A stretch of DNA of 64,000 nt from Leucoraja ocellata (GCA_036785375.1 JAWMAR010000384.1:186001-250000); one strand, 5' to 3'; positions 5,122-56,894 are shown, numbered from the stretch's first letter. Translations and numbers: made by a program. Notes: generated by a model from the sequence alone, not told the origin.

Positions 5122-5167
5122 ATGGCTGAATGGGTTTGGGTTCTCGCCTTGGTGACCTGTTTCCACT
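5122..5167 (+). CDS. IgL: Ig light chain cluster 1, leader exon (MAEWVWVLALVTCFH)
   Basis: Hydrophobic signal peptide followed by a phase-1 GTGAGT donor at 5168; splices in frame to the acceptor at 5263. Confidence 0.9.
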
Positions 5168-5263
5168 GTGAGTAGAGCGCAGAATAATTAATGCTGTATC
5201 GTTTTACATTCTGCTGTGTTTTTTTTCTAATGGTTCTGTATATTTATCTGTTATTTCTATCAG

Positions 5264-5602
5264 CTATAAACGCGGAGACTACCTTGACTCAGAGCCCGTC
5301 TATATCACAATCGCCGGGAACAACCGTGAAAATCACCTGTACACTGTCAGGGGGCAGCATCAGTAGCTTCTACACGAGCTGGTACTGGCAGAAGCCGGAC
5401 AGCAGCCCTGTCTTGGTGTGGTATCAAACCACCAGAGGCACCGGAATTCCAGACCGATTCACGGGATCCGTGGTCTCATCCACGAACCAAATGCATTTAA
5501 CCATCACCAACGTGCAATCGGAGGACGCGGCCGATTATTACTGTGCTGTGTGGGATGGCAGTACATACACCTTTGGGAGAGGAACCAAACTGAATCTAAG
5601 CA
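5264..5602 (+). CDS. IgL: Ig light chain cluster 1, germline-joined VJ exon (type I / sigma-cart-like), CDR3 AVWDGSTYT
   Basis: Polypyrimidine-CAG acceptor; V-set hallmarks (Cys, SWYWQK, DAADYYC) continuous with FGRGTKLNL; GTAAGT donor at 5603; no RSS between V and J. Confidence 0.95.
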
Positions 5603-7984
5603 GTAAGTAAAGTATTCACGGTGTGAAACAACGAATGGTTGAACTTGGGTTTTGCTTTCCATCACAAATCCTCGGTAGAAATATCCTATTAGACCTAAGT
5701 AGAACACAACGGGCCAGCCAGCATCTCCGGTAGACGTATAGATGGGCAATGTTTCGTGTCGGAACCTTTGCGAGAATTTCCCGAACGGAAATATCATCTT
5801 TCTTTGTGGACCAGAGATGCTGTCTGATCCGCTGGATTACTTCAGCACTTTGTGTTGTACTCAAGATGCCAACATTCGCGGTTCCTTGTTTCTCCTACGT
5901 GAAGTTGTGTTTTTTTAATAATCCTTTACCTCCATCCCTACAATACTCCGGGAAATCTGCGCTCATCTATCCGTGGCTTCTTGATCATCGTGGAATTTAA
6001 TGCCTTCGCAGACTGGCAGCTGTGCTTCAAAGTTGTTAAATTCTGGAATGACCTGAAAGTCTATTTCCCACTTTCTTCCCTGATGTTCACGAAACCTGCT
6101 CCTTTAACAGGAATACTGATTCTCTGATTTGAAGTATCCTCAAGTGGCGGGTTCCATGTGAGACTGCTGCTATTGGTCACTTTGCTTCAATATAAGCGGA
6201 ATGCAAACCAAAACTGTTGCCGTTACTTGAACAAATGTTTGGGAAATTATGAGATAACTTACAGTATATTGTGGACACGGATAATACCAACTCTGATAGT
6301 GGACCAAATAGAATCATTGGAAGCATCCAAAGGAAAGTTAATAAACATTTGGCAAGGGATGTCGGTGAATTTAAATGGGATATTTTTGGAATTGCAAATA
6401 CCCATTAGGGCAAATTGCGCGAAGTTGATTTCTGATCGTTTTAATGATACCATGAGGGTGAAGTGGCGTTTAGACAGGTTTACACGCGCTCCCTACAACA
6501 GCGCTAAAACTAATTGTCAGGGAAAAGGTTAAAAACAATATTTAAACGATTCGCACGGCAGCATTTCAATTCCCTTTGCGCGAAAGCGTGGAGGATTGTT
6601 GCAAGTCTGATTCAGCTCCGAAATGAGAAACAAGAGCAGAACCGGATTCTGGTTCATTTCTCGTTCAGCGAGCCATTGCCACCTTAGCTGATCACATTTG
6701 TGTGGATATGCCGTCAGACTCTTTGTACCCTTGACTCTTGTAGATCCTGCAAGGGATTTTGATGCTGGTTCTCCGATTGCCATCGAGAGTATGATATAGC
6801 AGAAAACGCAGACTGCTCATTATGCTGTTAAACATGATCCCTCTGAGTGTTGATTTTTTTTACGGGCAGGCAGTTGGTAGACCGACATGTCAAAAAAGCT
6901 TCAAAGAGCGAGACATCATTTTGCCATTTTCGGATAAATTAATGCAGAAATGGGCACACGTGTATACGAGGTTATTGCTGAATTGCCTTGAATCGTACGA
7001 TTGGAAGGAAATAGTACAGCGTCTTTAAATTCAGCATTAGCTTGAAATGTTTTTTAAAGTCCGAATATGTTGGATGTTAAACCCAGAGCTGTCTGGACAT
7101 GTGTCAGAAGGAATTTGAATCTGACCAAAACATTTCTTTAGTTTTACCTTTCATTTTTCTGCCCGCCACCATTATTGAATCATGAACTTTCTGGACGATG
7201 TGGAAGATTCACTAATAAGTAACATTCTAAAGACTGTTCCGGGATAGAATTGGGATTACTATTTAAACAAGCATTAATTTGGAAATGCTGCTCATTCTGC
7301 CAGGATTAGTTGTATTTACATTTTTTCTGCCCGTTTCCATGATCTGTAGAAAATCGTATGTTATATGTTTTATCAAACCTCGGATATACCCCCATAAAAA
7401 TTAACTTATCATGATTCTGCTGTATAAAATGAGGTTTATAAATGAACGGTACTTGTAAAGCCAGTGCAGTACACGGCCATAGAGCCACGGAGTTATGCAG
7501 CGGTGGAACAGTCCTTCAGTCCAGCTATTTCATGCCGACCGGGTTGCCCTACTTGAGCTGGTCCCATTTGCGCGTGTCAGGCCCATATCTCTTTGAACAT
7601 TTCTTATCCAAGTATTAATTCAAATGTTTATTTAAATGGTGTTATTGTACCTGCCTCATCAACTTCTTTGGGGAACTCATTCCATGGAGTCAACGCGTTA
7701 TGTGAACAAATGTTGCCCTGAACCTAAACCCACTAATTCTTCATTCTCCTACTACGGGGAAAAGACTCCCTGTGCTAACCCTATGTATTCCCCTCGCGAT
7801 TTTGTAACCGCCATGCGATCACCCTAAGGTCTTCTACACTCCAAGGACTAACGTCCTCGCATATCCAATCTATCCAACGAGTCGGCATATATCTTGCCTG
7901 GAGTCATTCCAGCTGAATCGATTCTGACTTTTAAATCAACTGATAAATAATTCATTTGTATTTATTTCAATTCTTTATTTCCAG

Positions 7985-8492: not shown

Positions 8493-10673
8493 ACAGATTA
8501 ATCTACTTACAATGCATCGTTGTCATTTTCTGTGCAAATGTCCTTGCCTTCAATAGAATAAAAACAATAATGTCCGATGATGCCAGTGTGTAGAAACTGG
8601 CGTTTTGTGAAACGTTGTTATATTTCAAATAAAGTGCGTGTTCATGATTGATCGTAGATCCATGTGTTAGGACAGTTGAAGGGACCGCTTGAACATACCC
8701 CCCTCACCCCCCCCCCCCCCCCCCCCCCCAGATAGAAGATATTAGGTGCAAACCAGTGTCTCCTATTTTGGATATCCCAAAAATACGGAAGCGCAGTCTT
8801 GGCATTACGCTAATATGCTTGAAGTACCCAAATGTGTCCAATCGTTCCGCACTAAATATCACAATATATCAGTGTTTATACCAGGAAAAACGCGATGACA
8901 AGTGTGGTTTGACGGATTAGTTAACCGCGGCATTACCGTGGTCTTTAATCAGCTCAACATTAATCACCAGAAGTGGTCATATATTTAAACAGTATAACGA
9001 GAGGAATAAATTTCAGGCTCGTAGGGGTGAGCCCAGTTGGCAGAGGAATGCGGGGGCTGGTGGGCAGGAGAACTCATCTCTGTACCGTAAAATAAAGTTG
9101 TCTGGCTGCTCACAATAACACAAGATGTAGCTTCGAGTAAATGTTCATCCAGCATGAAGTGGCGCTGCATTCGACGATGTTCTGTGGTCCCTGCAGTTAT
9201 CTTGCTCTTAGATGCTGAATCAATCCAAAAATATTGACATAATCTGCAGCACCTTTGGTATATTTACAGTTCTTGTCATTTATGGGGAGGCAAATGTAAA
9301 CTGCTTGATGTGAAAATGCTGGTATTGCCCAAGATGCAATTCGGTGCATTAAAACAATATATCAGGAGCCTACAGCTAGGATTAAGGTAAATGGAAACAT
9401 ATCAAAACGGATCCAGTTAGAGAGGGGCACAAGGCAAGGATGCTGTCTTTCTCTTACTCTCTTCGTTTTGTATATTGAACCCTTAGCACAAGCAATAAGG
9501 CAGAGAGAAGACCTGCAGGGGGTCAAAATGGGGGGAAAGAACATATAATTGGTCTTTTCGCTGATGATATCATTATTTTTCTTGAACGGCCAGATATATG
9601 TCTCCCAAATGTAATGAACCTATTTGAAACAAATGGATACTACTCAGGGTATAAACTGAATATAACAAAAACACAAATTATTTCATTCAATTATTCTCCA
9701 TCCCAACAAATCAGAGATGCATATAATCTGGAATGGAATTCTAAAACGATGCAGTATCTTGGTGTAACTATAACCAAAACACTTTCCAACTCGTTTGAAA
9801 CTAATTATAACAAAATTGAAGAAAACATCAAAAATGATGTTGAAAGGTGGTCGACCCTTCCTCTAGACTTCAGTGCCAGAATACAAACGGTAAAAATGAA
9901 TATCCTACCTAAACTACTATATTTATTCCAATCTCTCCCAATTAATGTCCCCCGAGATAAATCCATAGCCTGGGATAAAATGATCTCTAGATTCATTTGA
10001 AATAGCAAAAAAACAAGAATAAAACTAACAACACTTCAACTGCCGAAAAGCAAGGGTGGAATGGCTTTACCAAATCTGAGGAAATACATTTATGTAGCTC
10101 AACTCAGACCTCTGTTGGTGTAGACCTGATTATGAATCTCGATGGAAAGAAATTGAAAGGTAGATACAGGGTTACCAGATCCAGATTTTGGTGGGAGACT
10201 AATATCTGAGAGGGGCTTTGAGACACGCTATGGACCACATAGTAGCATTTACGTTAGAAATATGTAATGTTATAGTGGAAAAATACAAATTAAAAAGAGG
10301 GGTTCACGCATTGAAGTGGTTCGCATATGACTCAAAGTTTAACCAGGGGTGTATGATTCAAAATTCAAAGAATGGGCACAAAAAGGCATAATGGCAATGT
10401 ATACAGTTTCAGAAAATGGCGAGTTTATGAGCTTCCAAGATTTAAAGTCAAAGTCTGGTCTCGAAAACAATGATTTTTTTAGATACTTGCAATTAAGAGA
10501 CTACTTTACAAAAGAGGTAAGGCCAGAACTAGATGAAACTTCAAATAATGTGATCAAGGTGATTGTGGATGCATACAAACAGAAGGGGTCTCGGGTCAAC
10601 TCTGCTTTCTACCAAGCTCTGATGGGAAGCGGGGGAGAATCAACGCTCTACATAAAAACAAATTAGGAAGCAG

Positions 10674-10804
10674 NNNNNNNNNNNNNNNNNNNNNNNNNNN
10701 NNNNNNNNNNNNNNNNNNNNNNNNNNNNNNNNNNNNNNNNNNNNNNNNNNNNNNNNNNNNNNNNNNNNNNNNNNNNNNNNNNNNNNNNNNNNNNNNNNNN
10801 NNNN
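10674..10804. other. Assembly gap (N run)
   Basis: Run of N; the paralogous position in copy 2 is an (AAT)n(AAG)n microsatellite. Confidence 0.95.
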
Positions 10805-11255
10805 TTATATAGCACATTTATAGTCACTTTTCATTGACCCCAAAGTGCTTTACATAATTTAAAAATCAGTTCCATACAAAGCATAAAGATGGGTTAACAA
10901 AATAATAAAATGCATAAACAGGACACAACATGTAACATAACCATCCACCACAGCATTCATCACTGTGGTGGAAGGCACAAAAAATTTTGGCCGTCCTCCT
11001 CCATTTCCCCCCCCGTGGACAAGACCAGAGTCCAGAGTCCAGTCCAGGATCGGTCTTTCCTCACCGGAGACCGCGGCTTCAAGATTGTGTAGGCCGCAGG
11101 CCGGCGGTTGAGATTTAAAGTCCCCGCCGCAGCCAGAAGCACCGTAGACTGCAGGGCCGGCAGTTGAAGCTCCCCTCCAGGGGTGATGGTAAGTCCATGC
11201 CGGGCCCGCGGTAGAAGTTATCCGCGGGCCGGCAATGGCGGCTTCTTCTTCACCC
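10674..11255 (-). mobile_element. GC-rich non-autonomous retroelement with an L2-type 3' tail, nested in L1 (tail end falls in the N gap)
   Basis: Minus strand ends tgtaaagcactttg...aaatgtgctatataa; it interrupts L1 ORF2; complete paralog at 25098-25645. Confidence 0.7.
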
Positions 11256-12636
11256 ATAAGAAGAATGGTATCAAATGTGTGAAACACAATGTCCTTCCAC
11301 AAGCACACTAGTATGGAAAGAGTTTTTCTGGAAGAATCTATCTCGCTTTTTTTATAAGCAGCAAACTCGCTGTCCAACAACACTGTTGGAGGCTGTGTCG
11401 GAATACGGAGGCAGACCACTCGCATATTTTCTGGAACTGTGTAAAGATAAGGCCATACTGGGAAATTATTAATGCAGCTGTAAAAAATATCTTGGGTTAT
11501 AAAATTCCAAATACCTGCCATGTGATGTATCTGGGGCGTATTAAAGATATTGTAAAAATAAAAGATACATATTTGATTAAAGTTTTGCTTGCAGCAAGTA
11601 AGAAGGCCATTACCAGGCAGTGGCTTAATGAAAAAGTCCAAAACAGGAACAGTGGTTAGAAATTGTGCGAGACATCTTTAATATGGAGAAATTGACATAT
11701 TCCTTGAGAGTCAAGGAAAATTCATTTGAGAAGATCTGGGAATAATGGACCATTTATTTGAGCCATGACACCAATTAGATAAATGCCGAGCTAGATATGG
11801 GAATATCGCGTTATATAGAACTAGATGGTATGTTTGTATGATTATTGAATTATCTCCAGATAACTAATCAATGTAATGTTTTTGCTTTTTTTAAGTTGGT
11901 AAAGTGAACCACACGGTCTTATTCCATTTTTTTTTTTATTTACTTCTTTTATTTCCCCTATCTACTTATTTTTTTATTTTGATTGTTGTTTTTCTTACTT
12001 TGTTTTATTTATGGTGATGGTGTTGCACGGTTTTGTATATATCTCTTAAAAAACAAAGAAAATAAGTTGACCATTTGACCGCGTGGGCAGAAGATACTGA
12101 TGCAGTCTCCGATTATAACGGTAGATGGCGCTGCCGTACCTTACATCTGTGATGAAGCTCAACACGGCCAATTCTGAAATGGGTCAAACGCAATATTGTG
12201 TCTGAGGTCACGTACAGGCCAGACCAGCAATAATTGGATTATTTTCCCCTTGAAGGATATATTTGGGATCCAGTTGTTTTGTAATAATCAATCATACAAA
12301 CTGATGTTTCTTTTTAAATATTCCAGAAACTTAACATAATTTAGATTCCACACCTTCCCTGGTGAAATATGTCTGGATATGTGGTCAAGGCCTTTGCGTG
12401 ATGTGATTTCGGTTTGAAACCATTGCTTATCTTCACTTCCTTCACCTTTGCAGGGAGCGAATAGGAGGAATCTTTCACTGCATAAAAATATTCTTCTTTC
12501 ACAGTTTTCCGATTCAGCCACGGTTTAACCAAAGCTTGAGAGGTAACCTCTCCGCTTACTCGATACTTCGTTCTTTGAAACCTCACATATATCACAGGTT
12601 TTTGCTCACTACTCTGTCATATGCTGAGATAATAGA

Positions 12637-13045
12637 GCAGCTGGGCTTGTTCACTCTGAAGGATGAGAGGATATCTCATTGAAACATATACGATTGTTAA
12701 AGGGTTGGACACGCGAGAGGCAAAAAACATGTTCCCGATGTTGGAGGAGTCCAGAACCAGGGACCACAGTTTAAGAATAAGGACTAAGCCATTTAGAACG
12801 GAGACGAGGAAACACTTTTTCTCACAGAGAGTCGTGAGTGTGGAATTCTCTGCCTCAGAGGGCAGTGGAGGCAGGTTCTCTGGATGCTTTCAAGTGAGAG
12901 CTAGATAGGGCTTTTAAAAATAGCGGAGTCAGGGGATATGAGGAGAAGGCGGGAATGGGGTACTGATTGGGGATGATCAGCCATTGAATGGCGGTGCTGG
13001 CGCGAAGGGCCGAATGGCCTCCTCCTGCATCTATTATCTGTAGTC
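12637..13045 (+). mobile_element. CR1 3' end fragment (paralog ~27616-28025)
   Basis: MRGYLIETY...ESRTRDHSLRI...FFSQRVV plus CR1 tail gaagggccgaatggcct. Confidence 0.85.
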
Positions 13046-15506
13046 TATTATCTACTCTCGCGATATATCTTTCTACCTTGGCAGATGTGTGCTCATGAAC
13101 ACAAAGTCCCTCGGTTCCTGCGAACTTTGAACCCACATTGCCTCCCCCTCCCCCTCCCCCTCCCCCTCCACACACGAGGCAAACTATACAAGCTCATACT
13201 TCTCTGTGATAGGTTTCATCCATCATTTACCTACTCATTCTCCTGTCATATTGAAGTTTGAAATGCTCGCTGAGTACTCTCTCTCCCTCTCCTGCGTGTA
13301 AGCCGCTATTCCATCATGATTGTTGATGTGAATATATTGCTATTGGTACAGAACACAACTAGTTATGGGGATAGAGGAGAATTAAATCATTGGCCAAAAT
13401 GCTCGTGCATACTGAATGTGAATAATGAGAAGGGCCGAATGGCCTCCTCCTCCGGGAGAGACTTTAATATTTTTTTTGGACAAACATGAAGACAGTTGCA
13501 AACATGATTTTGTACATTTGAGTGGGTTTTGGTCCCAGGATTTTAGCCCCAGGTTTTCCATCTATCCAATTTGCCACGGTGTTGAGTGTCAATGAAAGTC
13601 ATAAAGATTTAAACAACGACGCATGACATAAATAACTGAACATTGTTCTCTTAAAAGAAACAAACAGAAAATCCAATTACAACTCATTTTAAACCGAGAA
13701 CTCTTGTTTGCAGAAACATCGCAGACACGTGGACTGTGACAGAAAATACACAGGAATAAATGATACATAAATTATACAAGTACATCAGAAAGAAAGAAAC
13801 AAGATTGCGGCCAAAAACATAATAATAATAAAACATGTCGATTGTGTACAAGTTTTGGGGCATAGTGTCCCGTTATGGAGGCAGAATTAGGGGTATGTTG
13901 GTCCTTCCAAAAGCTGGATAGTTGTAGGCAAGTAACTGTTGAACCGGGTGATGTATTTTCTGTAGTAGATCTGTAAAGGTTTGTTGGAGTATTTGGAGAC
14001 AAAAAGTATTTCTTTAAAATTCTTGGAAAGTAGAGGCATTGACGCTCCTTCACGGATGCAGTTGTTTGCTGGACCCGGGACACGTCATCCACAATGTTAA
14101 TGCTTAGAATTTAAAGCTGATAACTCTCTCCACCACTGCTCCATCAAATACTAACTGGCCTGAGGTCCCCGGACTTCCTCTTTCTGAAGTCAGCGACCAG
14201 TTCCGTCTTGTTGCTTTGGAGCGAAAGGTTGTTGTTCTGATACCACTCAACCAAGTGTTCCGTCACTCTTCTCTATGTTGACGCAGCACCATCAGTGATT
14301 CATCCAAACAGAATGGTGTTAGGGGTGGATCAATAGATGACTTTGGAGCTGTGGGTGTAAAGGAAGTAGAGCAGGGTGTAAAGCCGCAGCCTTGAGATGC
14401 GCTGTGTTGCTGGTCAATGGGGAGGAGATGATGTTCCCCATCCGCACTCGCTCACTTGAAGCTAATTCACCAAACAGTAAAACGGTGACTAATGTGATTG
14501 TAACCACTGAGCTGTAGTCCCATCCACCTCTGGTAACATATCACTACCCACCTTGTTTATTATGAATATTTCTACCTTTGGAAAAAAATAAAGACTGCTT
14601 CTACCACATTTTCAGAAACGTAATTGATGAGGCTTTCTCCATTCTGGGAGATGTGTTTTGTTTCTTCACTTTTTGAAGTAGGCATTTATTTTTGTGTAAC
14701 CGGTGACGTTTAGTTTTAGATTACCCCAGCCGAATTGTCCTCACCCTTCACATGCTGTTAAGACCCCGCATAATCACCTGTGCTTCAATTAAAGCAACTC
14801 TCATGCTTCAAACTGTCGAGCACTCACTCGTTGCAGATATGGGTATATTAGTAACCATTTTCTGAATTGCTTCAAAGGCATTTACATTTCAATACTCTGC
14901 TCGATACTGCGATGAAGTACAACTGAAACACTAAGACCCTTTCTCTTTTGTATTCGGTTTTTCTGGCGTTAGATGCTAACACTGTTACCTTTCCTAGGCA
15001 GTTGTTGTACCTCTTTCTAGCCTGTGGCGAATCCTCACCAACAATTCGAAATAATTCTGCATCTCAAAACACTGAAAATTGTCAAAATGTAAATATGAAG
15101 GGCCTCGACCCGAAACGTTAACCATACCTTCTCTCCAGAGATGCTGCCTGTCCCTCTGAGTTACCCCAACGTTTTGTGTCTATATTGTAAAGAACATTCT
15201 TTTGTATCACTTACCCGGCCAAAATTGACATTTCACATGTTCCCACATCCCGCATTTACCAGGCCTTTGCCCATTCACTGGAACTATCCACATCCACGGT
15301 GGCCTTGTTTGGTTCTTCATGTCATTAACAAATTCAACAGCCAACATTTTTTTTTTAGCATTTTTGGAAATTGTGGCTGCAGCAGTGATCTATAAGGCAC
15401 ATCAGTTTTTGCATCTTTCCAACCCGAATTTTGCCTATTTATGCGTGTTCTATGTTTCAAACGAATCGCCCAATGTTCTTTTCTTAACCATAAATACCAA
15501 GGTTCG

Positions 15507-16598
15507 TAGAAAATAGGTGCAGGAGTAGGCTATTCGGCCCTTCGAGCAGCACCGCCATTCAGCATGATCATGGCTGATCATCCAAAATCGGTATCCCGTT
15601 CCTGCTTTCTCCCCATATCCATTGGGTCCATCAACCCTAAAAGCTATATCTAACTCTCTGTTGAATACAACCAGTGATTTGGCCTCCACTGCCTTCTGTG
15701 GCAGAAAATTCCACAGATTCACAACTCTCTGCGTAACAAAAGTGTTTCCGCATCTCTGTCCTAAATGGCCTACCATTTTTTAAAACTAGGACGCCTGGTT
15801 CTGGATTCCCCATCATCGGGAACATTTTACATGCATCTAGTGTATCCAATCCCTTAAGAATGTTATATGTTTCTATAAGAACCCCTCTCATCCAAAATGC
15901 CAGTGCATATAAGCCCACTCGATCATATGTCAGTTCCACCATCCCGGGAATTAATCTGGTGAACCGACGTTGCACTCCCTCAATAGCAAGAATGTCCTTC
16001 CTCAAATGTAGAGAACAAAACTGCACATAATACTCCAGGTGTGGTCTCACTAGGGCCCTGTACCACTGCCGTCGGACCACCTTGTCCCTATACTCAAATC
16101 CTCTCGCAATGAAGGCCAACGTGCCATTCGATTTTCTTCACTGCCGACTGCACCTGCAAGCTTTCTTTCCGTGACTGGTGTTCAAGGCCACACAGTTCTC
16201 GTTTCACCTCCCCTTTCCCAAATTTGACACCATTCAGATAATAATCTGCCTTCCTGTTTTTGTCACCAAAGTGGATAACCTCACATTTATCCACGTTATA
16301 CTGCATCTGCCATGCATCTGCCCATTTACACATCCTATCCAAGTCACCCTGCTGCCTCATAGCATCCTCCATGCAGCTCACACTGTCACCCAGCTTTGTG
16401 TGATCAGCAAACTTGGAGATGTGCATTTAATTCCTTCATCTTAATCGTTAATATATATAGTTAATAACTGAGGTCCCAACACTGAGCCTTGCGGCACTAG
16501 TCACTGCCTGCCATTCTGAAAAGGACCCGTTAATTCCTACTCTTTGCTTCCTGTCTGCCATATAGTTCACCATCCATGTCAATACCATACCTCCAATA
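15507..16598 (-). mobile_element. CR1 LINE 3' fragment (copy 2)
   Basis: Paralog of 1523-2614. Confidence 0.9.
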
Positions 16599-18981
16599 TT
16601 ACCACATTATTTACCAGATCAACCTTAGATTCCTCACCTTATCAAATAGCTGCTCGAAATTATATCTGCCTGGCATGGTACTTCTTCAAAGCCTTTCCGT
16701 AAATTGGTGAAACGTCCTTCATAAATTCATAAATTGCAGGACCAGAATTAGGCCTTTCAGCTCTAATTCTACCCGGCCATTCTATCACGCTTGATTTATC
16801 TCCACCTCTCAGCCCCTCTCAGCCCCATTCTCCTGACTTATCCCCATAACCCTTAACACTCTTACTAATCACCAACCAATCAATCTGCACCTTAAAAATA
16901 TCAATTGAGTTGGCTTCCACAGCGTTCTGAAGCAATGGATTCCACAGATTCACCACCCTCTGACTAAAGGAATTCCTCCTCATCACCTTTTGTAAATGTA
17001 CGTCCTTTTATTCTGAGGCTATAACCTTTGGTCCTTGACTCCCCCACTCGTCGAAACATCCACTCCACATCCACTCTATCCAGGAGGGGAGGGGGCGCTC
17101 TCCCAAAGTCTACTATCAATTCCACCGTCTTAAGAACATTGAGCTCCAGATTGTTACGAAGGCACCAGGACGCCAGCTGTGTTACTTCCTGTCTGTAGGC
17201 AGATTCCTCCTCAACCTGGATCAGTCCAATCAGGGTTGTGTCGCCCCTGGGATCCCTGGGATCACCCTCGTAAACCTCCTCTGGACCCTCTCCAACGCCA
17301 GCTCACCCTTCCTCAGATTGGAGCCCAAAACTGTTCACAACACTCCAAATGCGGTCTGACCAGTGCCTGATAAAGGCCCAGCATTACATCCCTGGTTTTG
17401 TATTTTGTTTTTGTGTTCTGGCCCTCTCGAAAGAAATGCTAGCATTGCATTCGCCTTCCCGACTACAGACTTGTAAATTAACTTTTGGGGAATCCTGCAC
17501 CAGCACTCCCAAACCCCTTTGCACCTTACGTTTCTGAATGTTCCCTTTCTCAACAATATTTTGACTTTTGCGAGATGACCTTATTGATTATTTTGTCAAT
17601 ACCCTTTATATCGTTTTAGTAACAGCTTGCAATATTTCTGTCTCTCTTCCTTTCTGAATGTAAATGATCACCAAGGAACGTCCATGGTAGTTTTGAAATA
17701 AAAGCTCAAAGCAATGAATTCAGCGCTGCAATGGGATGAATTAAGATTCTCGAATTAAATACAATACATCTTAACACCCTGTCAGCCCGTGGCTCTATCA
17801 ACTTCCTAATGATTGCAACGTTTGTGAGTTTGTTCCTTGCTTCCACTTCCATGTCTGCAGCCGTTTCTGGGATGTTGTCCGTGTTCTGTAGCAGTGCAGA
17901 CCGAAGCCATTTTTCAGTTTACATTTTCTGTCATCTCCATATTCCCCTTTACTTTTACCCCAGATCCCCTACTTCACTGTCCAGTCTGTAGGTTGTAATA
18001 AAAATGACAGCAATTCTTACTATCATGCATTAACACTTCTAGCTGACGTCCAACAATACTTTAATATACTCATTGAACGCTTCGACATATTATTTTACAA
18101 TTCGCTGTTCAATTTTCTGATTTCCATTCAACTTTGCTCATAGAAATTTTTTGTGCTCTTAGTTTAATGCTGTCTTTAACATGTTTAGATAATTGTGGAT
18201 GTTTTATTTCTTGTGGCACGTGTGTAGTTTCTGTCTTTTGAATGATTACGTTGAAAGCTTCCGTCTACATCTGGAATTTCCGATATTTTAATTGAATTTG
18301 CTGGTGGATTTCAAGTTCAAGTTCACATTTAGTGTCACATACACGCAGCAGTTATGGTACCGTGATATTTGTGTTACCGTGCAGCCCATTCAAGTAAAAA
18401 TAACACAATACATTCAGCTGGCTCCGTTCCATGGCATGCATTTACCCCTATACAGCATTCCCTCACCCTCACATTTCTACTTTAATTAATGATGTATTGT
18501 TCTTCCCATGAACTTCAATTCGACCGTCTGAAGGGTCGTTCTTTCGCAATGCGATTAAGACATATTAACAGACTTTCCTGTGCCGTTTAATTTCACCATT
18601 AAAGTGGACACTTTAAATCCAATGAAGGGGCTAGTGGTGGAATGGTGCCTTGCGATATTACACGACTGCGAATTATTTGTAGGAAAAGGACAAAGGTGTT
18701 ATTTTATAATTATTTGGGAGCTTAAGGTGATTAGTGCAAAGTCTCTACAGTGCCACCATTCAACACAACTGACCACTTTTACTCAGTAAATAAGAGCTTG
18801 CTCTCACACAACAGTTCCCGTCTGAGTCTCAGAGCTTCTCTCCCCCTCCCCCCGCCGCCGTTGAGTTCACCGTTGTCTGCTACTCTCCTCCCACTTAAAA
18901 CAACATGAATATTTCTTTCTCCCAAAGGGCTGGAGCTGCAGAAATGTCATTTTACCCCGATCCAATAATTCAGTGAACCGG

Positions 18982-19040
18982 TGTCACGTGGATAAAGATT
19001 TGCATGAATAATTAATAATTAGTGACTGAAGACTTTAAAA
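18982..19040 (+). promoter_or_regulatory. Ig light-chain promoter, cluster 2 (CACGTG 18985-18990, ATTTGCAT 18998-19005)
   Basis: Same module as cluster 1. Confidence 0.85.
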
Positions 19041-19104
19041 GAGAAACTTGGAAATGGCTCAAAACCGCGCTTGTGCAGCAAAATATTCCCTTATAACCTT
19101 CAAC

Positions 19105-19150
19105 ATGGCTGTATGGGTTTGGGTTCTCGCCTTGGTGACCTGTTTCCACT
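19105..19150 (+). CDS. IgL: Ig light chain cluster 2, leader exon (MAVWVWVLALVTCFH)
   Basis: Signal peptide; GTGAGT donor at 19151. Confidence 0.9.
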
Positions 19151-19248
19151 GTGAGTAGAGCGCAGAATAATTAATGCTGTATCGTTTTACATTCTGCTGT
19201 GTTTTTTTTTTCTAATGGTTCTGTATATTTATCTGTTATTTCTATCAG

Positions 19249-19593
19249 CTATAAACGCGGAGACTACCTTGACTCAGAGCCCATCTATATCACAATCGCC
19301 GGGAACAAACGTGAAAATCACCTGTACACTGTCAGGGGGCAGCATCGGTAGCTTGTACACGAGCTGGTACTGGCAGAAGCCGGACAGCAGCCCTGTTTTC
19401 GTGTGGTATGAAACCACCAGAGGCACCGGAATTCCAGACCGATTCACGGGATCCGTGGACTCATCCACGAACCAAATGCATTTAACCATCACCAACGTGC
19501 AATCGGAGGACGCGGCCGATTATTACTGTGCTGTGCGGGATGGCAATACAGTCACATTCACCTTCGGGAAAGGAACCAAACTGAATCTAAGCA
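19249..19593 (+). CDS. IgL: Ig light chain cluster 2, germline-joined VJ exon, CDR3 AVRDGNTVTFT
   Basis: CAG acceptor, open V-J frame ending FGKGTKLNLS, GTAAGT donor at 19594. Confidence 0.95.
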
Positions 19594-21988
19594 GTAAGTA
19601 AAGTATTCACGGTGTGAAACAACAAATCGTTGAACTTGGGTTTTGCTTTCCATCATAAATCCTCGGTAGAAAGATCTTATTAAACCAAAGTAGACAGGAC
19701 GGGTCAGCCAGCTTCTCCGGTAGAAGTATAGATGGGCAATGGTTTGTGTCGGAACCTTTGCGAAAGGTTCCCGAACGGAAATATCATCTTTCTTTGTGGA
19801 CCAGAGGTGCTGTCTGATCCGCTGGATTACTTCAGCACTTTGTGTTGTACTCAAGATGCCAACATTCGCGGTTCCCTGTTTCTCCTACGTGAACTTGTTT
19901 TTTTTTTAAATAATCCTTTACCTCCATCCCTACAACACTCCGGGAAATCTGCGCTCATCTATCCGTGGCTTCTTGATCATCGTGGAATTTAACGCCTTCA
20001 CAGACTGACAGCTGTGCTTCAAATGCGAAGTTGTTAAATTCTGTAATGATCTGAAAGTCTATTTCCCACTTTCTTCCCTGATGTGCATGAAACCTGCTCC
20101 TATAACAGGAATACTGATTCTCTGATTTGAAGTATCCTCAAGTGGCGGGTTCCATATGAGACTGCTGCTATTGGTCACTTTGCTTCAATATAAGCGGAAT
20201 GCAAACCAAAACCTTTGCCGTTACTTGAACAAATGTTCGGGAAATTATGAGATTTCATTAACTTACAGTATATTGTGGACACGGATAGTACCAACTCTGA
20301 GAGTGGGCCAAATAGAATCATTGGAAACATCCAAAGGAAAGTTAATAAACATTTGGCAAGGGATGTCGGTGAATTTAAATGGGATATTTTTGGAATTGCA
20401 AATACCCATTAGGGCAAATTGCGCGAAGTTGATTTCTGATCGTTTTAATGATACCATGAGGGTGAAGTGACGTTTAGACAGGGTTACACGCGCTCCCTAC
20501 AACAGCGCTAAAACTAATTGTCAGGGAAAAGGTTAAAACCAAAATTTAAACGCTTCGCACGGCAGCATTTCAATTCCCTTTGCGCGAAAGCGTGGAGGAT
20601 TGTTGCAAGTCTGATTCAGCTCCGAAATTAGAAACAAGAGCAGAACCGGATTCTGGTTCATTCCTCGATCAGCGAGCCATTGCCACCTTAGCTGATCACA
20701 TTTGTGTGGATATGCCGTCAGACTCTTTGTACCCTTGACTCTTGTAGATCCTGCAAGGGATTTTGATGCTGGTTCTCCGATTGCCATCGAGTGTATGATA
20801 TAGCAGAAAACGCAGACTGTTCATTATGCTGTTAAGCATGATCCCTCTGAGTGTTGATTTTTTTTAAGGGCAGGCGGTTGGTAGACCGACATGTCAAAAA
20901 AGCTTCAAAGAGCGAGACATAATTTTGCCATTTTCGGATAAATTAATGCAGAAATGGGCACACGTGTATACGAGGTTATTGCTGAATTGCCTTGAACCGT
21001 ACGATTGGAAGGAAATAGTACAGCGTCTTTAAATTCAGCATTAGCTTGAAATGTTTTTTAAAGTCCGAATATGTTGGATGTTAAACCCAGAGCTGTCTGG
21101 ACATGTGTCAGAAGGAATTTCAATCTGACCAAAACATTTCTTTAGTTTTACCTTTCATTTTTCTGCCCGCCACCATCATTGAATCATGGACTTTCTGGAC
21201 GATGTGGAAGATTCACTAATAAGTAACATTCTAAAGATTGTTCCGGAATAGAATTGGGATTACTATTTAAACAAGCATTAATTTGGAAATGCTGCTCATT
21301 CTGCCAGGATGAGTTGTATTTACATTTTTTCTGCCCGTTTCCATGATCTGTAGAAAATCGTATGTTATGTGTTTTACCAAACCTCGGATATACCCCCATA
21401 AAAATTAACTTATCATGATTCTGCTGTATAAAATGAGGTTTATAAATGACCGGGAATTGTAAAGCCAGTGCAGTACACGGCCATAGAGCCACGGAGTTAT
21501 GCAGCGGTGGAACAGTCCTTCAGTCCACCTATTTCATGCCGACCGGGTTGCCCTACTTGAGCTGGTCCCATTTGCGCGTGTCAGGCCCATATCTCTTTGA
21601 ACCTTTCTTATCCAAGTATTAATTCAAATGTTTATTTAAATGGTGTTATTGTACCTGCCTCATCAACTTCTCTGGGGAACTCATTCCATGGAGTCAACGC
21701 ATTATGTGAACAAATGTTGCCCTGAACCTAAACCCTCTAATTCTTCATTCTCCTACTACGGGGAAAAGACTCCGTGCGCTAACCCTATGTATTCCCCTCG
21801 CGATTTTGTAACCGCCATGCGATCACCCTAAGGTCTTCTACACTCCAAGGACTAACGTCCTCGCATATCCAATCTATCCAACGAGTCGGCATATATCTTG
21901 CCTGGAGTCATTCCAGCTGAATCGATTCTGACTTTTCAATCAACTGATAAATAATTCATTTGTATTTATTTCAATTCTTTATTTCCAG

Positions 21989-22311
21989 GTCCGCGCTCCC
22001 CCACCGTTTCCATTCTGGCGCCATCAATGGGTGAAGTCACCGCAGAAAGTACCGCCACCCTGGTGTGTTTGGTGAGCGGGTTCAACCCGGGCGCTGTGGA
22101 CATTAAGTGGACCGTGGACGGCAGTGCGAGAAGTGACGGCGCTGCGACCAGCCGGGTACAGCAGGAGAAGGACAACTCGTTCAGTGTGAGCAGTTACCTG
22201 ACTCTGCCAGCCGCCTACTGGAACTCACACGATCTTTACTCCTGTGTGGTTAAACACGAAACCCAGGCAACCCCGATTAAGGCCAACATCGCCAGATCCA
22301 GTTGCCTCTAA
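21989..22311 (+). CDS. IgL: Ig light chain cluster 2, constant exon
   Basis: Intact C1-set domain. Spliced CDS 714 nt = 237 aa. Confidence 0.95.
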
Positions 22312-22490
22312 TTCAAAGGATCAAATTCCCGATTTACTCCATTTCTTTGTAAATTAATCCAATATTCAGATATGGAATGTTCGCTTTAACAGGGTATTTG
22401 TTCAAACGCAGCACGTGTGCATTTTGTTGCCGTGAATGCGCTGTTGGTATTTTACGATGAACTGAAAAGCGATAATGTAACATTTAATGC

Positions 22491-22496
22491 AATAAA
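22491..22496 (+). terminator. Polyadenylation signal AATAAA, cluster 2
   Basis: Position paralogous to 8487. Confidence 0.6.
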
Positions 22497-25095: not shown

Positions 25096-25097
<2 letters not shown>

Positions 25098-25181
<84 letters not shown>

Positions 25182-37115: not shown

Positions 37116-37121
37116 AATAAA
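37116..37121 (+). terminator. Polyadenylation signal AATAAA, cluster 3
   Basis: Position paralogous to 8487 and 22491. Confidence 0.6.
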
Positions 37122-40100
37122 ACAGATTATTCTACTTACGATGCATCGTTGTAATTTTCTGTGCAAACGTCCTTGCCTTCAATAGAATAAAAACAATAAT
37201 GTCCGATGATGCCAGTGTGTATAAACTGGTGTTTTGTGAAACTTCGTAATATTTCAAATAAACTGCATTTTCATGATTGATGGTGATCCATGTGTTCGGA
37301 CAGCTGAAGGGACCGCTTGCACATACCCCCCCCCCCCCCCCCCCCCAGATTGAAGAAATTGGGTGCCAATCCGTGTCCCTATTTTGATATCCCAGAAATA
37401 CGGAAGTACAGTCTTGGCATTACGCGAATATGCTTGAAGTACTCAACAGTCTCCAATAAATCCGCACAAAATATCACAATATATCAGTGTTTATGCAATG
37501 GAAACCGCGATGAAAAGTGTGGGTTGACGAATTAGTTAACCGCGGCATTACCGCGGTCTTTAATCAGCTCACCATTAATCACCAGAAGTGGTCATATATT
37601 TAAACAGTATAACGAGAGGAATAAAGTTTAGGCTCGTAGGGGTGAGCCCTAGACTCATCTTGAAGGGGGGCTGCGCAACAACAATTAACCGAAGTATAAA
37701 TTGTGATTCCCAGAATTGGGATAAACAACTTTCGGCATATGGAAACTGCTTGGATGTTCTTCTCAGGGAATAACAACACATTTTTAACATAAATTATGAA
37801 AAATTATGAAAATTATAAATTATGAAAATATAAATTATCCGATGTGGGTAAATCCTATCTAAAGAGACCCTCTAGTACGATGTCAATATCCAGTCGTAAA
37901 ATAAATTTATAATTATAAAATATACCACCTATTTGACAAACTTGTTAGTAACAGGTTGGGGACGCCACCTGTCTCCTTTCACCCCCTTCCTCCAAGGTTA
38001 TCCTTCACTCCATTCCCCACTTGGTGCTGATTCCCTTTTCACCCCTAGCCTTTGCCAATTAACCCCCTACCTAATCAACCCCCTCTCACATGTATCAACT
38101 TATAACTTGGCAGGCTTTATCACACCTCATATATATTTTCCAGCTTTCTCCCCTCTGTCCCAATTAGTGCAGAAGGGTCTAGACCTGAAACGATACCTGT
38201 CTATTCCCTAATCAGATATTGCCCGCCCCGGCGAGTCATATAGAATCCAATGGCGGAGTCTTGTTTTGCTGGATCTCTAACCGTGACGGCATTCATGAGA
38301 ATGTTTCTTGGGATCTGTAATCTCAATGCATCAGTAGCGCCTGATGGTTTCAGTCTGAACTTTGGCGTTCATCTGCTCTATCTGATGTATATATTAGTTC
38401 TGGTCATACCTGGCTGCTTATTGCTATTCTCTTCTTATTGATGTATATTTCACAGGATTTCTTAATTGATGATGTCTTTTGCGCTGGTAATCAGGTGATT
38501 GAACCGTTTCCTCAACTAATCCTCCTGTTGTATGGTGCTCAGTTACAGATCGAAACACATCACTTAAATACCGAAATCGAACTTCCAACATTTGTCATAT
38601 TAATTTCATACCATATTTGCAATCATGCGAACATCGCAATGTTCGGCGATGACATGATCTATTCAGTGAGTGCTAACGGCCACATTTTCCAGTCCGAAAC
38701 ACCAATTCATGGATTATTTTCAAGCCCATTGATGTTAATGCTTGAGATTAATAATTGAAGCAATGATTTGGAGCTTTGCATTAAAATACGATGAAAACAG
38801 TTACAAATGGCGTGGGATAGTTACTGCTGACATCCCAAAAGCACATGCACACACACAAATGGAGGGTAGCTGTCAGGGAAATGGGGCGGGAGTGGGTGAT
38901 GTGTAGGCGAACGGGACCAGTCACCCCGGCTCCTAAAATAATGGGTATTGAGCCGCTCAGAACGACCTCATTGTGTAGCACCGTTGTTGCAACAGTGGGC
39001 ACCTACTACAAATGTCATTACTTCGCCATAAGAGCTGCCTCTGTCATTGGACCTATCTTCTGTGAACTTGTGCTTAAGTGTTGAACTAATCTTAAGTAGT
39101 GAAGACCTCCGCAATACTTGAGAGACATTACTGCCTGCCAAAGCTGCTGATGGCATTCAATGTTTTCGAAAGCATTCATGCAACCATATAAATTAATTCA
39201 CATTTCGAAACACATCAAAATGAATGAAAATAAAGCTATGTGCAAATAGTAAATATAGCTACACACAACAGGGAATCTTATAGATGACAATTGAAAACAT
39301 TGAAACAATCTCACTTGAGTATAATACTGTTAGTCACGTTTCCATCATTGACATTTCTCTCAATTCAAATGAATGGACTTGCTTTTCCGCTCCAGTTTAA
39401 TGGACAGGTTCCTCAAAATAATTGTTGTTAAGTTCAGCAAATTCCTGCTCCATTGCCAAACTCCATCAAAAGTATACATTTGATCGAAGGTAGATATAAT
39501 CGGTGAACACAAATCAGCAAAGGTGTCCGCCGTTTGAACATTCACCGGTAGATGGCATTATTGTCTTACATATGTCTGAACAAAGTTCTCGACCCGAAAC
39601 GTCACCCATTCCTTCTCTCCAGAGATACAGCCTGTCCCGCTGAGTTAGTTACTCCAGCTTTTTTGTGTCTATCTTCGGTTTAAACCAGCATCTCTAGTTC
39701 CTTCCTACACATATGCCCATACTTGTGAGCATTACAATTTATTGCAGAGATGATATACATTTACAGTCAATTGTATACAATATCACGACAATGATATTTT
39801 TGCAAAATCCATATAAAATCTATAAACGTGAACGCATCCCTAATGCATGCAATGGTGTCCATGCTCGTGACCTCATTACACCGATTTAATAGGCGAGTGG
39901 TGTTGCATTAGGAAGACGAATATCTTTTAATCCTTCGAATTTCTATACTAAAGATTAAGAAATTATGCATGCAATTATGTAAGTCAGATGATTTGACACA
40001 GGCACATAGAATATATATATATAATCTTAATGGTAAATCAGAGTTTCATATTCTTCAATTTCATATCATGATAAATAGAAGTTATGCAGTGCATACTTTG

Positions 40101-48586: not shown

Positions 48587-48602
48587 TAGTTGGTGGGCTG
48601 AG

Positions 48603-51790: not shown

Positions 51791-53056
51791 TGTGCCTATC
51801 CATTCCTCAGAATGACCTCACGGGCCAGACTTGTTTAAGAAATAGTTAGACATGTACATTGATCGGACAGGTTTGGAGGGATATGGACCAAGCACAGGCA
51901 AGTGGGACTAGTGTAGCTGAGGCCTTGTTAGCTGGTGTGGGCAAGTTGGGCCGAAGGGCCTGTTTCCACACTGTAGCCCTCTATGACTCTATGACTCAGT
52001 TTTCTAAACTCTGTAATTTCTCGACAATGATCTCAGCCAACCCAATTGTGCCAATTTAACTCCAAAGTTTCCAAGTGTCCTTATTTTCTGATTTGTTGTT
52101 TTACCCATTCAGAAATATGTTTCACTATATTATCGCCCACAATGACACATCCTTCAATGGGCCTTTTGTTTTGTCAAATGCGTTTCAAGGATTTATCGTG
52201 TTTTCATGTAATTGTGCAAAACGCAATTGTCTTTCACATATCTTCATTGCAATGATACTCCGCGTCTTCTTTTCCCTTCTCCATCAATCTGCCCCGAACA
52301 TTTCGAGTTGACAATTGAAGTATTAATGCTTTCAGTCCTATGTCGATGAATACGGAAATTGCGGGAGCGTCCTCTGAATTGTTAGCTCGTCACACAGTAT
52401 TATAACCTACAAATATACATATACACATTGAGAGCTGTTTTGGAGCTTAAACTCTCCAAGCACAAAGTATATGGTGATTTGCCGCAAAGCTTATGCGGTG
52501 CCATCGAAAACCTGCACGATTCATAGCATGTTATCTGTATGGGTAACAACAGCAAAGAAAATAATGGTTTATAAAGTTTCCACAAATTAAGGCTAAAATT
52601 AATTTCAAAAATCTTCGTAAAATCTTCAACGTTTTTTTTCACTCCTTCCAGCTCGGAATCAAAAATACGAAGTTGAAAATTGGAAATCTGAAACAAAAAC
52701 AGTATATGGAGGTGACACTCGGTAGCATCTGTGAAGAGCTGGTTTCTTTGGTTTTGGTGAAGCTTTATTGCCTTAACAAAAGGTCACGTCCTTTTTCCCT
52801 TCACGTGTATTCTCTGAGGTGTTGAGCATCCCTAGTATTTTCTGTTTCTGCACAAAATATATCTGCCTGCCTAACAACTGACTACAAAGCAGTTCCTACA
52901 TCTGGCCATGCAGTTTGCTATTCTTCTGTTCTCCTTTATGATTCTAGCGACCCCCCCCCCCCCCCCCCCCCACCCTCCGCCCTCTACCCTACGCCCAAGC
53001 ACAGAGAAAAGCCCGATGATTTGCCAATATCACTCTACAATGATCCAGTAATTCGA

Positions 53057-53090
53057 TGTCACGTGGATACAGATTTGCATAAATAATTAA
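53057..53090 (+). promoter_or_regulatory. Ig light-chain promoter, cluster 4 (CACGTG 53060-53065, ATTTGCAT 53073-53080)
   Basis: Octamer and E-box at the same 7-nt spacing as clusters 1-3, although the flanks are diverged. Confidence 0.85.
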
Positions 53091-53202: not shown

Positions 53203-53251
53203 ATGTCTGAATGGATTCGCGTTCTTGCCGCGTTCGTGTTCTGCTTCCATA
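53203..53251 (+). CDS. IgL: Ig light chain cluster 4, leader exon (MSEWIRVLAAFVFCFH)
   Basis: Kozak-like accATG, signal peptide homologous to clusters 1-3, phase-1 GTAAGT donor at 53252. Confidence 0.9.
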
Positions 53252-53341: not shown

Positions 53342-53674
53342 CTTCAATCGCAGTGATTTTGGTGACTCAGGACCCTACGTCCATCTCCACTTCTCCGGGG
53401 GAAACGGTCAAGATGACTTGTACCCTCTCAGGAGCCCAGATGAGCAGCTACTACACTAGCTGGTATTGGCAAAAGACCGGCAGCGCCCCGGTCCTTGTGT
53501 GGTATGAGACCACCAGAGCTTCTGGAATTCCAGATCGATTCACCGGTACCGTGGATAAGCCGAACAATATAATGCACCTGACCATCACCAACCTGCGAGC
53601 TGAGGATGTCGCCGATTATTACTGTTTAGTTGGAACTATTGGCTTCGGGAAAGGAACCAAATTGAATCTAAGCA
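53342..53674 (+). CDS. IgL: Ig light chain cluster 4, divergent germline-joined VJ exon, 6-aa CDR3 LVGTIG
   Basis: ttatttcaccAG acceptor; VTQDP...C...SWYWQK...DVADYYC-LVGTIG-FGKGTKLNLS; GTAAGT donor at 53675. Confidence 0.95.
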
Positions 53675-56120: not shown

Positions 56121-56322
56121 AAGGTAGACAAAAATGCTGGAGAAACGCAGCGGGTGAGGCAGCATCTATGGAGCGAAGGAATAGGTGACGTTTCGGATCG
56201 AGACCCTTCTTCAGACCTTCTTCCGTCTAAAGAAGGGTCTCGACCCGAAACGTCGCCTATTTCCTTCGCTCCATAGATGCTGCTTCACCCGCTAAGTTTC
56301 TCCAGCATTTTTGTCTACCTTT
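56121..56322. repeat. Long inverted-repeat interspersed element (~96-bp arms, 8-nt loop) in the cluster 4 J-C intron
   Basis: aaggtagacaaaaatgctggagaaac...tcagac mirrors gtctaaagaagggtc...gcatttttgtctacctt. Related copies or half-copies at ~1115, ~5700-5870, ~39590, ~58040-58200, ~59250 and ~63150. Confidence 0.85.
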
Positions 56323-56571
56323 GAAAGATATTCTGAATCTGTTCTCTCTGGTGCTGGGGGAAATGTTCTCGCTGCATGCAATCTTTCAAGACATCAAAGG
56401 AGTTTGCCTGTTTCGATGCTCTGAAATCCAGAGATTGCATCCCCATCTACTCAATTCTCCCTCACACGGCAAACAATCTATCTCTGGAACCCGGGGAAGC
56501 AAAAAAAAACCACTTGATTCGGAAGGCCAGCGTTAATAATCCACTATGCTGTACTTCTTTCTATTTTCCAG

Positions 56572-56894
56572 ATCCCCAGCCTCCCGCGGTGTCAGTCCTT
56601 GGGCCATCAGAGGAAGAAATCGCGGGAAAGGGCACCGCCACTCTGGTGTGTTTGGTGAACGGGTTCAACCCGGGCGTTGTGGACATTGAGTGGACGGTGG
56701 ACGGCAGTGCGAGAAGTGATGGCGTCGACACAGGCCGAGCCCAGCAGGATCAGGACAACACGTTCAGTACCAGCAGTTACCTGACTCTGCCAGCCGCCTA
56801 CTGGAACTCACACGAGCTTTACTCCTGTGTGGTTAAACACGAGACTCAGACAACCCCACTGAAGACAAACATCGCCAGATCTGGTTGTGCTTGA
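56572..56894 (+). CDS. IgL: Ig light chain cluster 4, constant exon
   Basis: ctattttccAG acceptor; PQPPAVSVLGPSEEE...ATLVCLV...YSCVVKH...SGCA. Spliced CDS 705 nt = 234 aa. Confidence 0.95.

What the first reader, a model, noticed from the sequence alone, without database searches (positions are those of the whole stretch)
5122..56894. Tandem array of four intact, germline-joined Ig light-chain genes: a hard-wired antibody repertoire
Seen: each cluster has V fused in frame to J in genomic DNA with no RSS, intact L/VJ/C splice sites, an octamer promoter and a C-terminal Cys. Established: cartilaginous fish use a cluster-type Ig organisation and some clusters are germline-joined; skate type I light chains are the classic case. 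Inference: these genes can be expressed without RAG, so they need another mechanism of locus choice and exclusion.
Basis: partly seen in the sequence, partly recalled or inferred. Interest (0 to 1): 0.7.

Follow-up and report, generated by a model that had tools for sequence, protein, structure and literature searches.

The report
Pre-joined skate lambda light-chain genes
Four intact antibody light-chain genes, likely from a skate, carry their V and J parts already fused in the genomic DNA, the known normal state of the lambda class in sharks and rays, so the finding is real but ordinary apart from unusually divergent third binding loops among near-identical copies.

Summary
Observation confirmed. 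Four same-strand leader-VJ-C genes (5122-8307, 19105-22311, 33892-36953, 53203-56894) have open frames, GT/AG phase-1 introns, an octamer 107-130 bp upstream, and V fused in frame to J with no RSS in the exon. Nearest relatives are skate proteins (90-94%). Reviews state all cartilaginous-fish lambda genes are germline-joined, so this is known biology. 'Hard-wired repertoire' is overstated: it concerns only one light-chain class. Genes 1-3 are recent 14-15 kb tandem duplicates; gene 4 is an old paralogue. One detail deserves note: CDR3 differs by up to 11 of 33 nt between copies whose flanks differ by 3-4%, the excess spills into the neighbouring intron, and one CDR3 is closer to another skate's than to its neighbours'. 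This fits old joins kept diverse by selection while conversion homogenises the rest. Expression and exclusion were not testable.

The parts
4980..5032 (+). Gene 1 promoter block: E-box-like CACGTG (5002-5007) 7 nt before the octamer (5015-5022)
   Evidence: 53-bp block 87% identical to gene 4 promoter; motif names recalled
5122..5167 (+). Gene 1 leader exon
5264..5602 (+). Gene 1 fused VJ exon, CDR3 9 aa
7985..8307 (+). Gene 1 C exon, penultimate Cys; first AATAAA-type signal at 8487
9030..23459 (+). Tandem duplication unit holding gene 2; begins with a broken LINE-type reverse transcriptase fragment
   Evidence: self-BLAST; boundary sequence; RVT_1 match
18998..19005 (+). Gene 2 octamer
19105..19150 (+). 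Gene 2 leader exon
19249..19593 (+). Gene 2 fused VJ exon, CDR3 11 aa
21989..22311 (+). Gene 2 C exon
23460..37649 (+). Tandem duplication unit holding gene 3
33785..33792 (+). Gene 3 octamer
33892..33937 (+). Gene 3 leader exon
34035..34379 (+). Gene 3 fused VJ exon, CDR3 11 aa
36631..36953 (+). Gene 3 C exon
53038..53090 (+). Gene 4 promoter block with the same E-box-like site and octamer (53073-53080)
53203..53251 (+). Gene 4 leader exon
53342..53674 (+). Gene 4 fused VJ exon, CDR3 6 aa; older lambda subfamily shared with other skates and sawfish
56572..56894 (+). Gene 4 C exon, penultimate Cys; first AATAAA-type signal at 56931

Best explanation
These are four intact immunoglobulin lambda (type II) light-chain clusters, likely of a skate, whose V and J are fused in frame in the genomic DNA, so each would be expressed in B cells by transcription and splicing alone, without RAG acting on it. 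Shown: exon anatomy, fusion, lambda affinity, and the three 14-15 kb tandem copies plus one old paralogue. Inferred: the joins are ancient and inherited; copy number grew by unequal crossing-over; gene conversion keeps flanks and frameworks alike while selection keeps old, different CDR3 loops, which gives a small inherited light-chain repertoire. Inferred from other species: a B cell switches on these promoters (octamer plus E-box) stochastically or late, pairs the chain with a RAG-rearranged heavy chain through the penultimate Cys, diversifies it by somatic hypermutation, and reaches one specificity through limited promoter activation plus heavy-chain pairing preference rather than through rearrangement feedback at this locus.
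For: Anatomy. Class: 81 of 83 VJ hits and 113 of 115 C hits are named cartilaginous-fish proteins; C identity 69-75 of 107 to three named sandbar-shark lambda chains versus 42-48 of 105-106 to two named sigma chains and a skate member of the sigma clade; V 54-68 of 90 versus 29-36 of 84; sigma splits off at 100/100 in the V tree; CDR2 2 aa versus 7 in all 8 sigma-2 sequences tabulated; penultimate Cys as in the named lambda chains, terminal in sigma. Inherited join: gene 4 has a thorny-skate counterpart with the same 6-aa junction length, 4 of 6 residues and 93.6% overall identity; three reviews/papers state lambda is always joined. Old CDR3s: CDR3 differences 3/27, 6/27, 11/33 nt against 3.0-3.8% in the J-C intron (p 0.047, 4e-4, 1e-8); the 150 nt of intron after J vary at 19/149 columns versus 81/1846 further on (p 9e-5); gene 3 CDR3 matches a thorny-skate CDR3 at 9/11 but its neighbours at 5/11 and 6/11, while its leader+V is closer to the neighbours; copy-specific sites are clustered along the unit (101 of 224 adjacent pairs alike versus 82 shuffled, p 0.004). 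CDR3 lengths in 81 named relatives are 5 (11), 6 (1), 8 (1), 9 (32), 11 (26), 12 (9), 13 (1), with none of 7 or 10.
Against: No expression, sperm-DNA or single-cell data were available. No type I or kappa sequence was retrieved, so those classes are excluded by CDR2 length and by high identity to lambda, not by a direct tree test; the node joining the window genes with named lambda chains is not strongly supported on its own (83/72 and 93/86). CDR2 of 2 aa is one residue below the 3-7 range tabulated for lambda, although 9 of 114 named relatives share it. The gene 1 versus gene 2 CDR3 excess is weak (up to 6 differences occur in equal windows of intron). Three copies are too few for a real dN/dS test, and CDR1 and CDR2 show no clear excess (1-3 of 30 nt). 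The intron 'skirt' was noticed after looking, and other 40-column windows reach 8-9 variable columns against 10 at CDR3. The exclusion mechanism rests on analogy and recall.
Confidence: 0.88

Rival explanations
1. The junctions of genes 1-3 are independent, recent RAG joins in germ cells: a split lambda cluster was duplicated first and each copy was joined separately, as shown for nurse-shark kappa (NS4).
For: The differences concentrate at the V-J border and include a 6-nt length change, which resembles trimming and addition; independent germ-cell joining is documented for NS4 (PMC2193156 passages).
Against: All 4 of 4 joins are in frame, no split cluster, RSS pair or orphan segment lies in the window; split lambda genes are not reported in the reviews read; joining would not raise divergence in the intron after J; gene 3's CDR3 is shared with another skate; lengths 7 and 10 are absent from 81 relatives.
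Confidence: 0.05
2. The fused exons are somatic rearrangements from lymphocyte DNA captured by the assembly.
For: The tissue sequenced is unknown; blood of these fish holds lymphocytes (general knowledge).
Against: Four of four clusters are joined and in frame; a genome-derived protein of another skate has the same junction length and most residues as gene 4; no mixed or split allele is visible; lambda is non-rearranging in erythrocyte Southern blots of nurse shark (PMC2435157 passages).
Confidence: 0.01
3. Genes 1-3 are partly an assembly artefact (alleles or mis-ordered contigs laid in tandem), so the true copy number is lower.
For: The window has two N gaps (10674-10804, 41512-41647), one between genes 1 and 2.
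Against: Three versions differ pairwise by 2-4% plus private insertions, more than two haplotypes can supply; the first gap sits exactly where the sister unit has an (ATA)n(AAG)n microsatellite and the alignment runs on across it; the database cluster nearest genes 1-3 in thorny skate has 10 members.
Confidence: 0.05
4. The genes are retro-copies of rearranged mRNAs, or intact-looking but silent donors for gene conversion.
For: LINE-type reverse transcriptase fragments are abundant nearby; fused receptor genes serve as conversion donors in chicken (PMC2193156 passage).
Against: Both introns, the promoter and poly(A) signals are retained in all four; the promoter block is conserved between gene 4 and genes 1-3 while introns no longer align; C exons vary less (0.9-2.2%) than the J-C intron (3.0-3.8%); lambda is reported expressed in adult clearnose skate (PMC5192425 section 5.1).
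Confidence: 0.03

Closest known systems
Cartilaginous-fish Ig lambda (type II / NS3) light-chain clusters, e.g. sandbar shark lambda, nurse shark NS3, little skate type II
   Same: One leader-VJ-C cassette per cluster, V-J joined in the germ line, octamer promoter, penultimate Cys, 64-70% C identity and 60-76% V identity to named sandbar-shark chains, CDR1 of 8 aa, CDR3 of 9 or 11 aa in the commonest classes.
   Different: CDR2 is 2 aa rather than the usual 3 (66 of 114 relatives have 3, 9 have 2); gene 4 has a 6-aa CDR3 seen otherwise only in one thorny-skate protein.
Lambda gene models of thorny skate (Amblyraja radiata), little skate (Leucoraja erinacea) and Rhinoraja longicauda
   Same: 89-93% protein identity for genes 1-3 (P0001-P0003), 93.6% for gene 4 (P0071); same two subfamilies at 100/95 and 100/89 support.
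   Different: None of the returned proteins is identical; the three nearest relatives of genes 1-3 have a 3-aa CDR2. Other members of those clusters could not be listed.
Skate type I (sigma-2 / sigma-cart) light chains (Anderson et al. 1995, PMC2192082)
   Same: All joined in the germ line in skate, many clusters, differences concentrated in CDRs with replacement excess (abstract).
   Different: A separate isotype with CDR2 of 7 aa and its own C-region clade (supplementary tree text); split in horn shark, whereas lambda is joined everywhere.
Recently joined nurse-shark kappa (NS4) genes (Lee et al. 2000, PMC2193156)
   Same: V-J fused in the germ line with normal octamer promoter.
   Different: NS4 has split and joined genes side by side, with pseudogenes among the joined; here no split relative is seen.

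Membership tests
Ig light-chain gene, cluster type | Split leader, one V-set domain with J motif, one C1-set domain, in one cassette | tested here: met
Ig light-chain gene, cluster type | Octamer upstream of the leader and C-terminal inter-chain Cys | tested here: met
   octamer at -107/-130; Cys penultimate
Ig light-chain gene, cluster type | Expressed in B cells and paired with heavy chain | not testable with these tools
   no transcript or protein data
Cartilaginous-fish lambda (type II/NS3) | V and C closest to experimentally named lambda chains | tested here: met
   C 69-75/107 and V 54-68/90 to three named sandbar-shark lambda chains; placed among them in both trees
Cartilaginous-fish lambda (type II/NS3) | V-J joined, no RSS | tested here: met
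   4 of 4 genes in this assembly; germ-cell DNA itself not examined
Cartilaginous-fish lambda (type II/NS3) | CDR1 3-9 and CDR2 3-7 residues (range in PMC5985310, 12 sequences) | tested here: inconclusive
   CDR1 8 fits; CDR2 2 is one short, but 9 of 114 relatives with lambda-type C share it
Sigma-2 (type I / sigma-cart / NS5) | CDR1 8 and CDR2 7 residues in all members | tested here: not met
   CDR2 is 2 in all four
Sigma-2 (type I / sigma-cart / NS5) | C region in the sigma-2 clade | not tested
   no named sigma-2 protein came back
Sigma (type IV) | CDR2 9-10 residues; V and C group with named sigma chains | tested here: not met
   CDR2 2; C 40-46%; sigma is a separate clade at 100/100
Kappa (type III / NS4) | V and C group with shark kappa | not tested
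   no named shark kappa came back; kappa is listed as not determined for little skate
Lambda-2 of ray-finned fish | CDR1 5-7 and CDR2 2-3 residues | tested here: not met
   CDR2 fits but CDR1 is 8; not found in cartilaginous fish

The most novel reading that the evidence does not exclude
Skates actively rewrite the junctions of their pre-joined lambda genes in the germ line (junction-focused conversion between clusters, or renewed RAG-type joining), so that each lineage builds a heritable CDR3 repertoire on an almost fixed framework: V(D)J-like diversity moved from the lymphocyte to the germ line. The milder form, old CDR3 lineages kept by selection across species like MHC alleles, is part of my best explanation (about 0.5) and was not found in the literature searches.
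Probability: 0.07. Interest if true: 0.7.

Novelty: new member of a known kind. Interest (0 to 1): 0.22.

Why it matters
As a class this is textbook comparative immunology: joined lambda clusters have been described since the 1990s. The window's modest value is practical. Four neighbouring genes with fixed, distinguishable CDR3s (9, 11, 11, 6 aa) are natural barcodes for asking in single skate B cells how many non-rearranging loci are active, and three near-identical copies let one separate junction history from flank history, which bears on whether lambda joins are ancient relics or repeatedly remade.

Tried and rejected
RSS scan: only chance-level hits; the best, at the leader splice donor of genes 1-3 (7/7 heptamer, 7/9 nonamer, 22-nt spacer, minus strand), is one duplicated site, absent from gene 4, and rejected as chance. 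Germ-line AID footprint: variable C/G sites in VJ are not enriched at WRC/GYW hotspots (3 of 19 versus 41 of 175) and the leader region is nearly invariant (1-2 of 142), so rejected. Conversion of CDR2 from gene 4 into genes 1-3: the sliding identity there (17-20 of 24) is no higher than in frameworks (up to 21 of 24), so unsupported. A single short-CDR3 clade: in the V tree the 5-6-aa CDR3 genes fall in at least three places; no formal clade test was run. Intronic enhancer motifs: no kappa-B or octamer match in the J-C introns, only E-box-like hexamers. Rfam and tRNA scans: nothing. PDB search returned only distant antibody chains and did not help classification. A search seeded with a sigma chain gave sigma references but no named type I or kappa. 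The look-up of further members of the skate clusters could not be made, so whether they share the 2-aa CDR2 stays open. Three look-ups for two key papers (Iacoangeli 2017; Criscitiello and Flajnik 2007) found nothing held. No structure or complex was predicted. No nucleotide collection of fish genomes or transcripts was on hand.

Full report
Observation. All 8 introns are GT...AG and phase 1 and the spliced frames are open (235, 237, 237, 234 aa). Pfam calls the exons of genes 1 and 4 V-set and C1-set. An exact octamer sits 107, 107, 107 and 130 bp before the ATG, with an E-box-like CACGTG 7 nt upstream of it; this 53-bp block is 87% identical between genes 1 and 4 although their J-C introns no longer align. 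The motif names are recalled. V runs straight into the FGxG of J. A loose RSS scan found 25 hits against 17.6 expected (range 10-26, 20 simulations), none inside a VJ exon; tblastn and short blastn found no orphan V, J or C. The inter-chain Cys is penultimate.

Array structure. Self-BLAST shows genes 1-3 in head-to-tail units of about 14-15 kb at 93-97% identity. The unit starts at about 9030 and 23460 with a broken LINE-type fragment and the last copy ends at about 37649. The first unit runs off the left end of the window, so the array may be longer. The N gap at 10674-10804 falls where the sister unit has an (ATA)n(AAG)n microsatellite, and the alignment resumes across it. Gene 4 lies 16 kb further on and shares only exons (74% VJ, 88% C), the promoter block and common repeats.

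Class and organism. Of 83 proteins found with the gene 1 VJ exon, 81 are named cartilaginous-fish proteins, one is a turtle protein and one is unnamed; of 115 found with the C exon, 113 are named cartilaginous-fish proteins. The nearest are skates: 89-93% for genes 1-3, 93.6% for gene 4, so the window is likely from a skate; I did not try to identify the assembly. NCBI's automatic name 'lambda-1 like' is not diagnostic, because sigma chains carry it too. I therefore used records named by depositors. Against three sandbar-shark lambda chains the C regions match at 69-75 of 107 and V at 54-68 of 90; against nurse-shark and horn-shark sigma and a skate member of that clade, 42-48 of 105-106 and 29-36 of 84. 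In trees of 57 rows (54 chosen by hand from 207 stored proteins plus the four genes, one dropped for lack of a J anchor) sigma is a separate clade (100/100 in V); genes 1-3 join thorny- and little-skate proteins (100/95) and gene 4 joins another thorny-skate protein (100/89), then Rhinoraja and sawfish. The deeper nodes linking them to the sandbar chains are only 83/72 and 93/86, and the C tree is the quick one. No named type I or kappa protein was retrieved, so these were not in the tree. Type I is excluded by CDR2 length: 7 residues in all 8 sigma-2 sequences of PMC5985310 Table S5 (isotype labels lost in the text extraction and read with the main-text passage) against 2 here. The 2-aa CDR2 is also one short of that table's lambda range, but 9 of 114 named relatives share it.

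What is known. PMC4279169 (passages), PMC5192425 (passages and section 5.1) and PMC12227049 (passages) each state that cartilaginous-fish lambda genes are all joined in the germ line; the last adds that a cluster of them lies in the human chromosome 9 MHC paralogue. PMC5192425 reports lambda expression in clearnose skate, low in embryos and dominant over sigma-cart in adults. PMC2192082 (abstract and references only) describes at least 89 joined type I clusters in little skate with differences concentrated in CDRs. PMC2193156 (passages) shows recent RAG-like germ-cell joining for nurse-shark kappa and notes cDNAs from all-joined isotypes. PMC2435157 (passages) uses NS3 as a non-rearranging standard and proposes limited trans-factors and H-L compatibility for heavy-chain exclusion. 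PMC8873125 and PMC6901605 (passages) added only references. [quoted passage not shown] That NS3 genes hypermutate is also recalled. Of the 15 supplementary files of PMC5985310 I read two; the others, and the papers not held, may bear on the class definitions and on whether the CDR3 pattern below is already described.

How it most likely works. Shown: each cassette has everything needed to give a light chain by transcription and splicing. Inferred: it pairs with a heavy chain that still needs RAG; further diversity comes from hypermutation; one specificity per cell comes from limited promoter activation plus pairing preference. None of this was testable here.

The one unusual detail. Among genes 1-3 the upstream 2 kb differ by 2.1-3.7%, the J-C intron by 3.0-3.8%, C by 0.9-2.2% and V frameworks by 2.6-4.5%, but CDR3 differs by 3/27 (plus a 6-nt indel), 6/27 (plus the indel) and 11/33 nt, with gaps placed to minimise differences. 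For genes 2 and 3 no equal window in 5.1 kb of flanks exceeds 7; for genes 1 and 2 the excess is within flank range. The changes include synonymous ones (3.0 of 7.3 sites for genes 2 and 3). The 150 nt of intron after J vary at 19 of 149 columns, the next 250 at 18 of 248, the rest at 81 of 1846 (noticed after looking). Gene 3's CDR3 matches a thorny-skate CDR3 at 9 of 11 residues but its neighbours at 5 and 6 of 11, while its leader plus V is closer to the neighbours (103/109 and 101/109 versus 100/110). Copy-specific substitutions are clustered along the unit (p 0.004 after thinning), as expected of conversion or unequal exchange. Among 121 named cartilaginous-fish hits, 114 had all four anchor residues (7 dropped; none of them has a CDR3 of 7 or 10), and 81 of these belong to the short-CDR2 V family; their CDR3 lengths are 5 (11), 6 (1), 8 (1), 9 (32), 11 (26), 12 (9), 13 (1), and the 5- and 9-aa classes occur from chimaera to sharks and rays. 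These are 90%-cluster representatives picked by similarity, not a census. Together this fits old joins held apart by selection while the rest is homogenised, better than fresh joining, which would not touch the intron, should leave split or out-of-frame relatives, and should give a smoother length spread. An AID footprint was not seen. Searches showed no paper on this pattern, but the library lacks most of the relevant journals.

Verdict. Real, correctly described, re-classified as lambda, and an expected feature of any cartilaginous-fish genome. New member of a known kind; interest 0.22.

Noticed in passing
window 5002-5022, 18985-19005, 33772-33792, 53060-53080: An E-box-like CACGTG at a fixed 7 nt before the octamer is conserved in all four promoters, including the old paralogue; a candidate element for lambda-specific activation.
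   Followed up: partly
window 5603-5752 and equivalents in genes 2 and 3: Intron just after J is about three times more variable between copies than the rest of the intron (19/149 versus 81/1846).
   Followed up: yes
end of each VJ exon (e.g. window 5593-5601): All four J regions encode an N-L-S sequon, the only potential N-glycosylation site in each chain.
   Followed up: no
window 5170, 19153, 33940 (minus strand): RSS-like match (7/7 heptamer, 7/9 nonamer, 22-nt spacer) overlapping the leader splice donor of genes 1-3; absent from gene 4; within chance counts.
   Followed up: partly
window 56118-56324: A 205-bp near-perfect hairpin (89% self-complementary, -108 kcal/mol as DNA) in the J-C intron of gene 4, MITE-like or an inverted SINE tail pair.
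   Followed up: partly
window 9030-12040 and 23460-26431: Broken LINE-type element (RVT_1 match at 9479-9997) whose start coincides with the duplication boundary; possible role in unequal exchange.
   Followed up: partly
window 40362-41096: 244-aa open frame matching the end of RVT_1 plus ALKBH8_N, typical of a fish non-LTR retrotransposon (family assignment recalled).
   Followed up: no
window 26429-26892 and 42214-42674: A 470-bp repeat in inverted orientation (90%) with an internal 30-bp tandem pair; the first copy is an insertion private to the gene 3 unit.
   Followed up: no
window about 1500-3300, 15450-17300, 30290-31400, 59836-61838: Decayed LINE-type fragments, mostly minus strand; endonuclease and RVT_1 matches at 61470-61835 and 60461-60772.
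   Followed up: no
   Followed up: partly
gene 4 CDR3 (window about 53626-53643) and proteins P0037, P0048, P0061, P0062, P0064, P0066, P0074, P0078, P0079, P0124: A very short CDR3 class (5 aa, 6 here) recurs in nine genera from chimaera to rays, hinting at a conserved special-purpose light chain.
   Followed up: partly
window 1-4900: The first duplication unit is cut by the window's left edge, so more lambda clusters may lie upstream.
   Followed up: no
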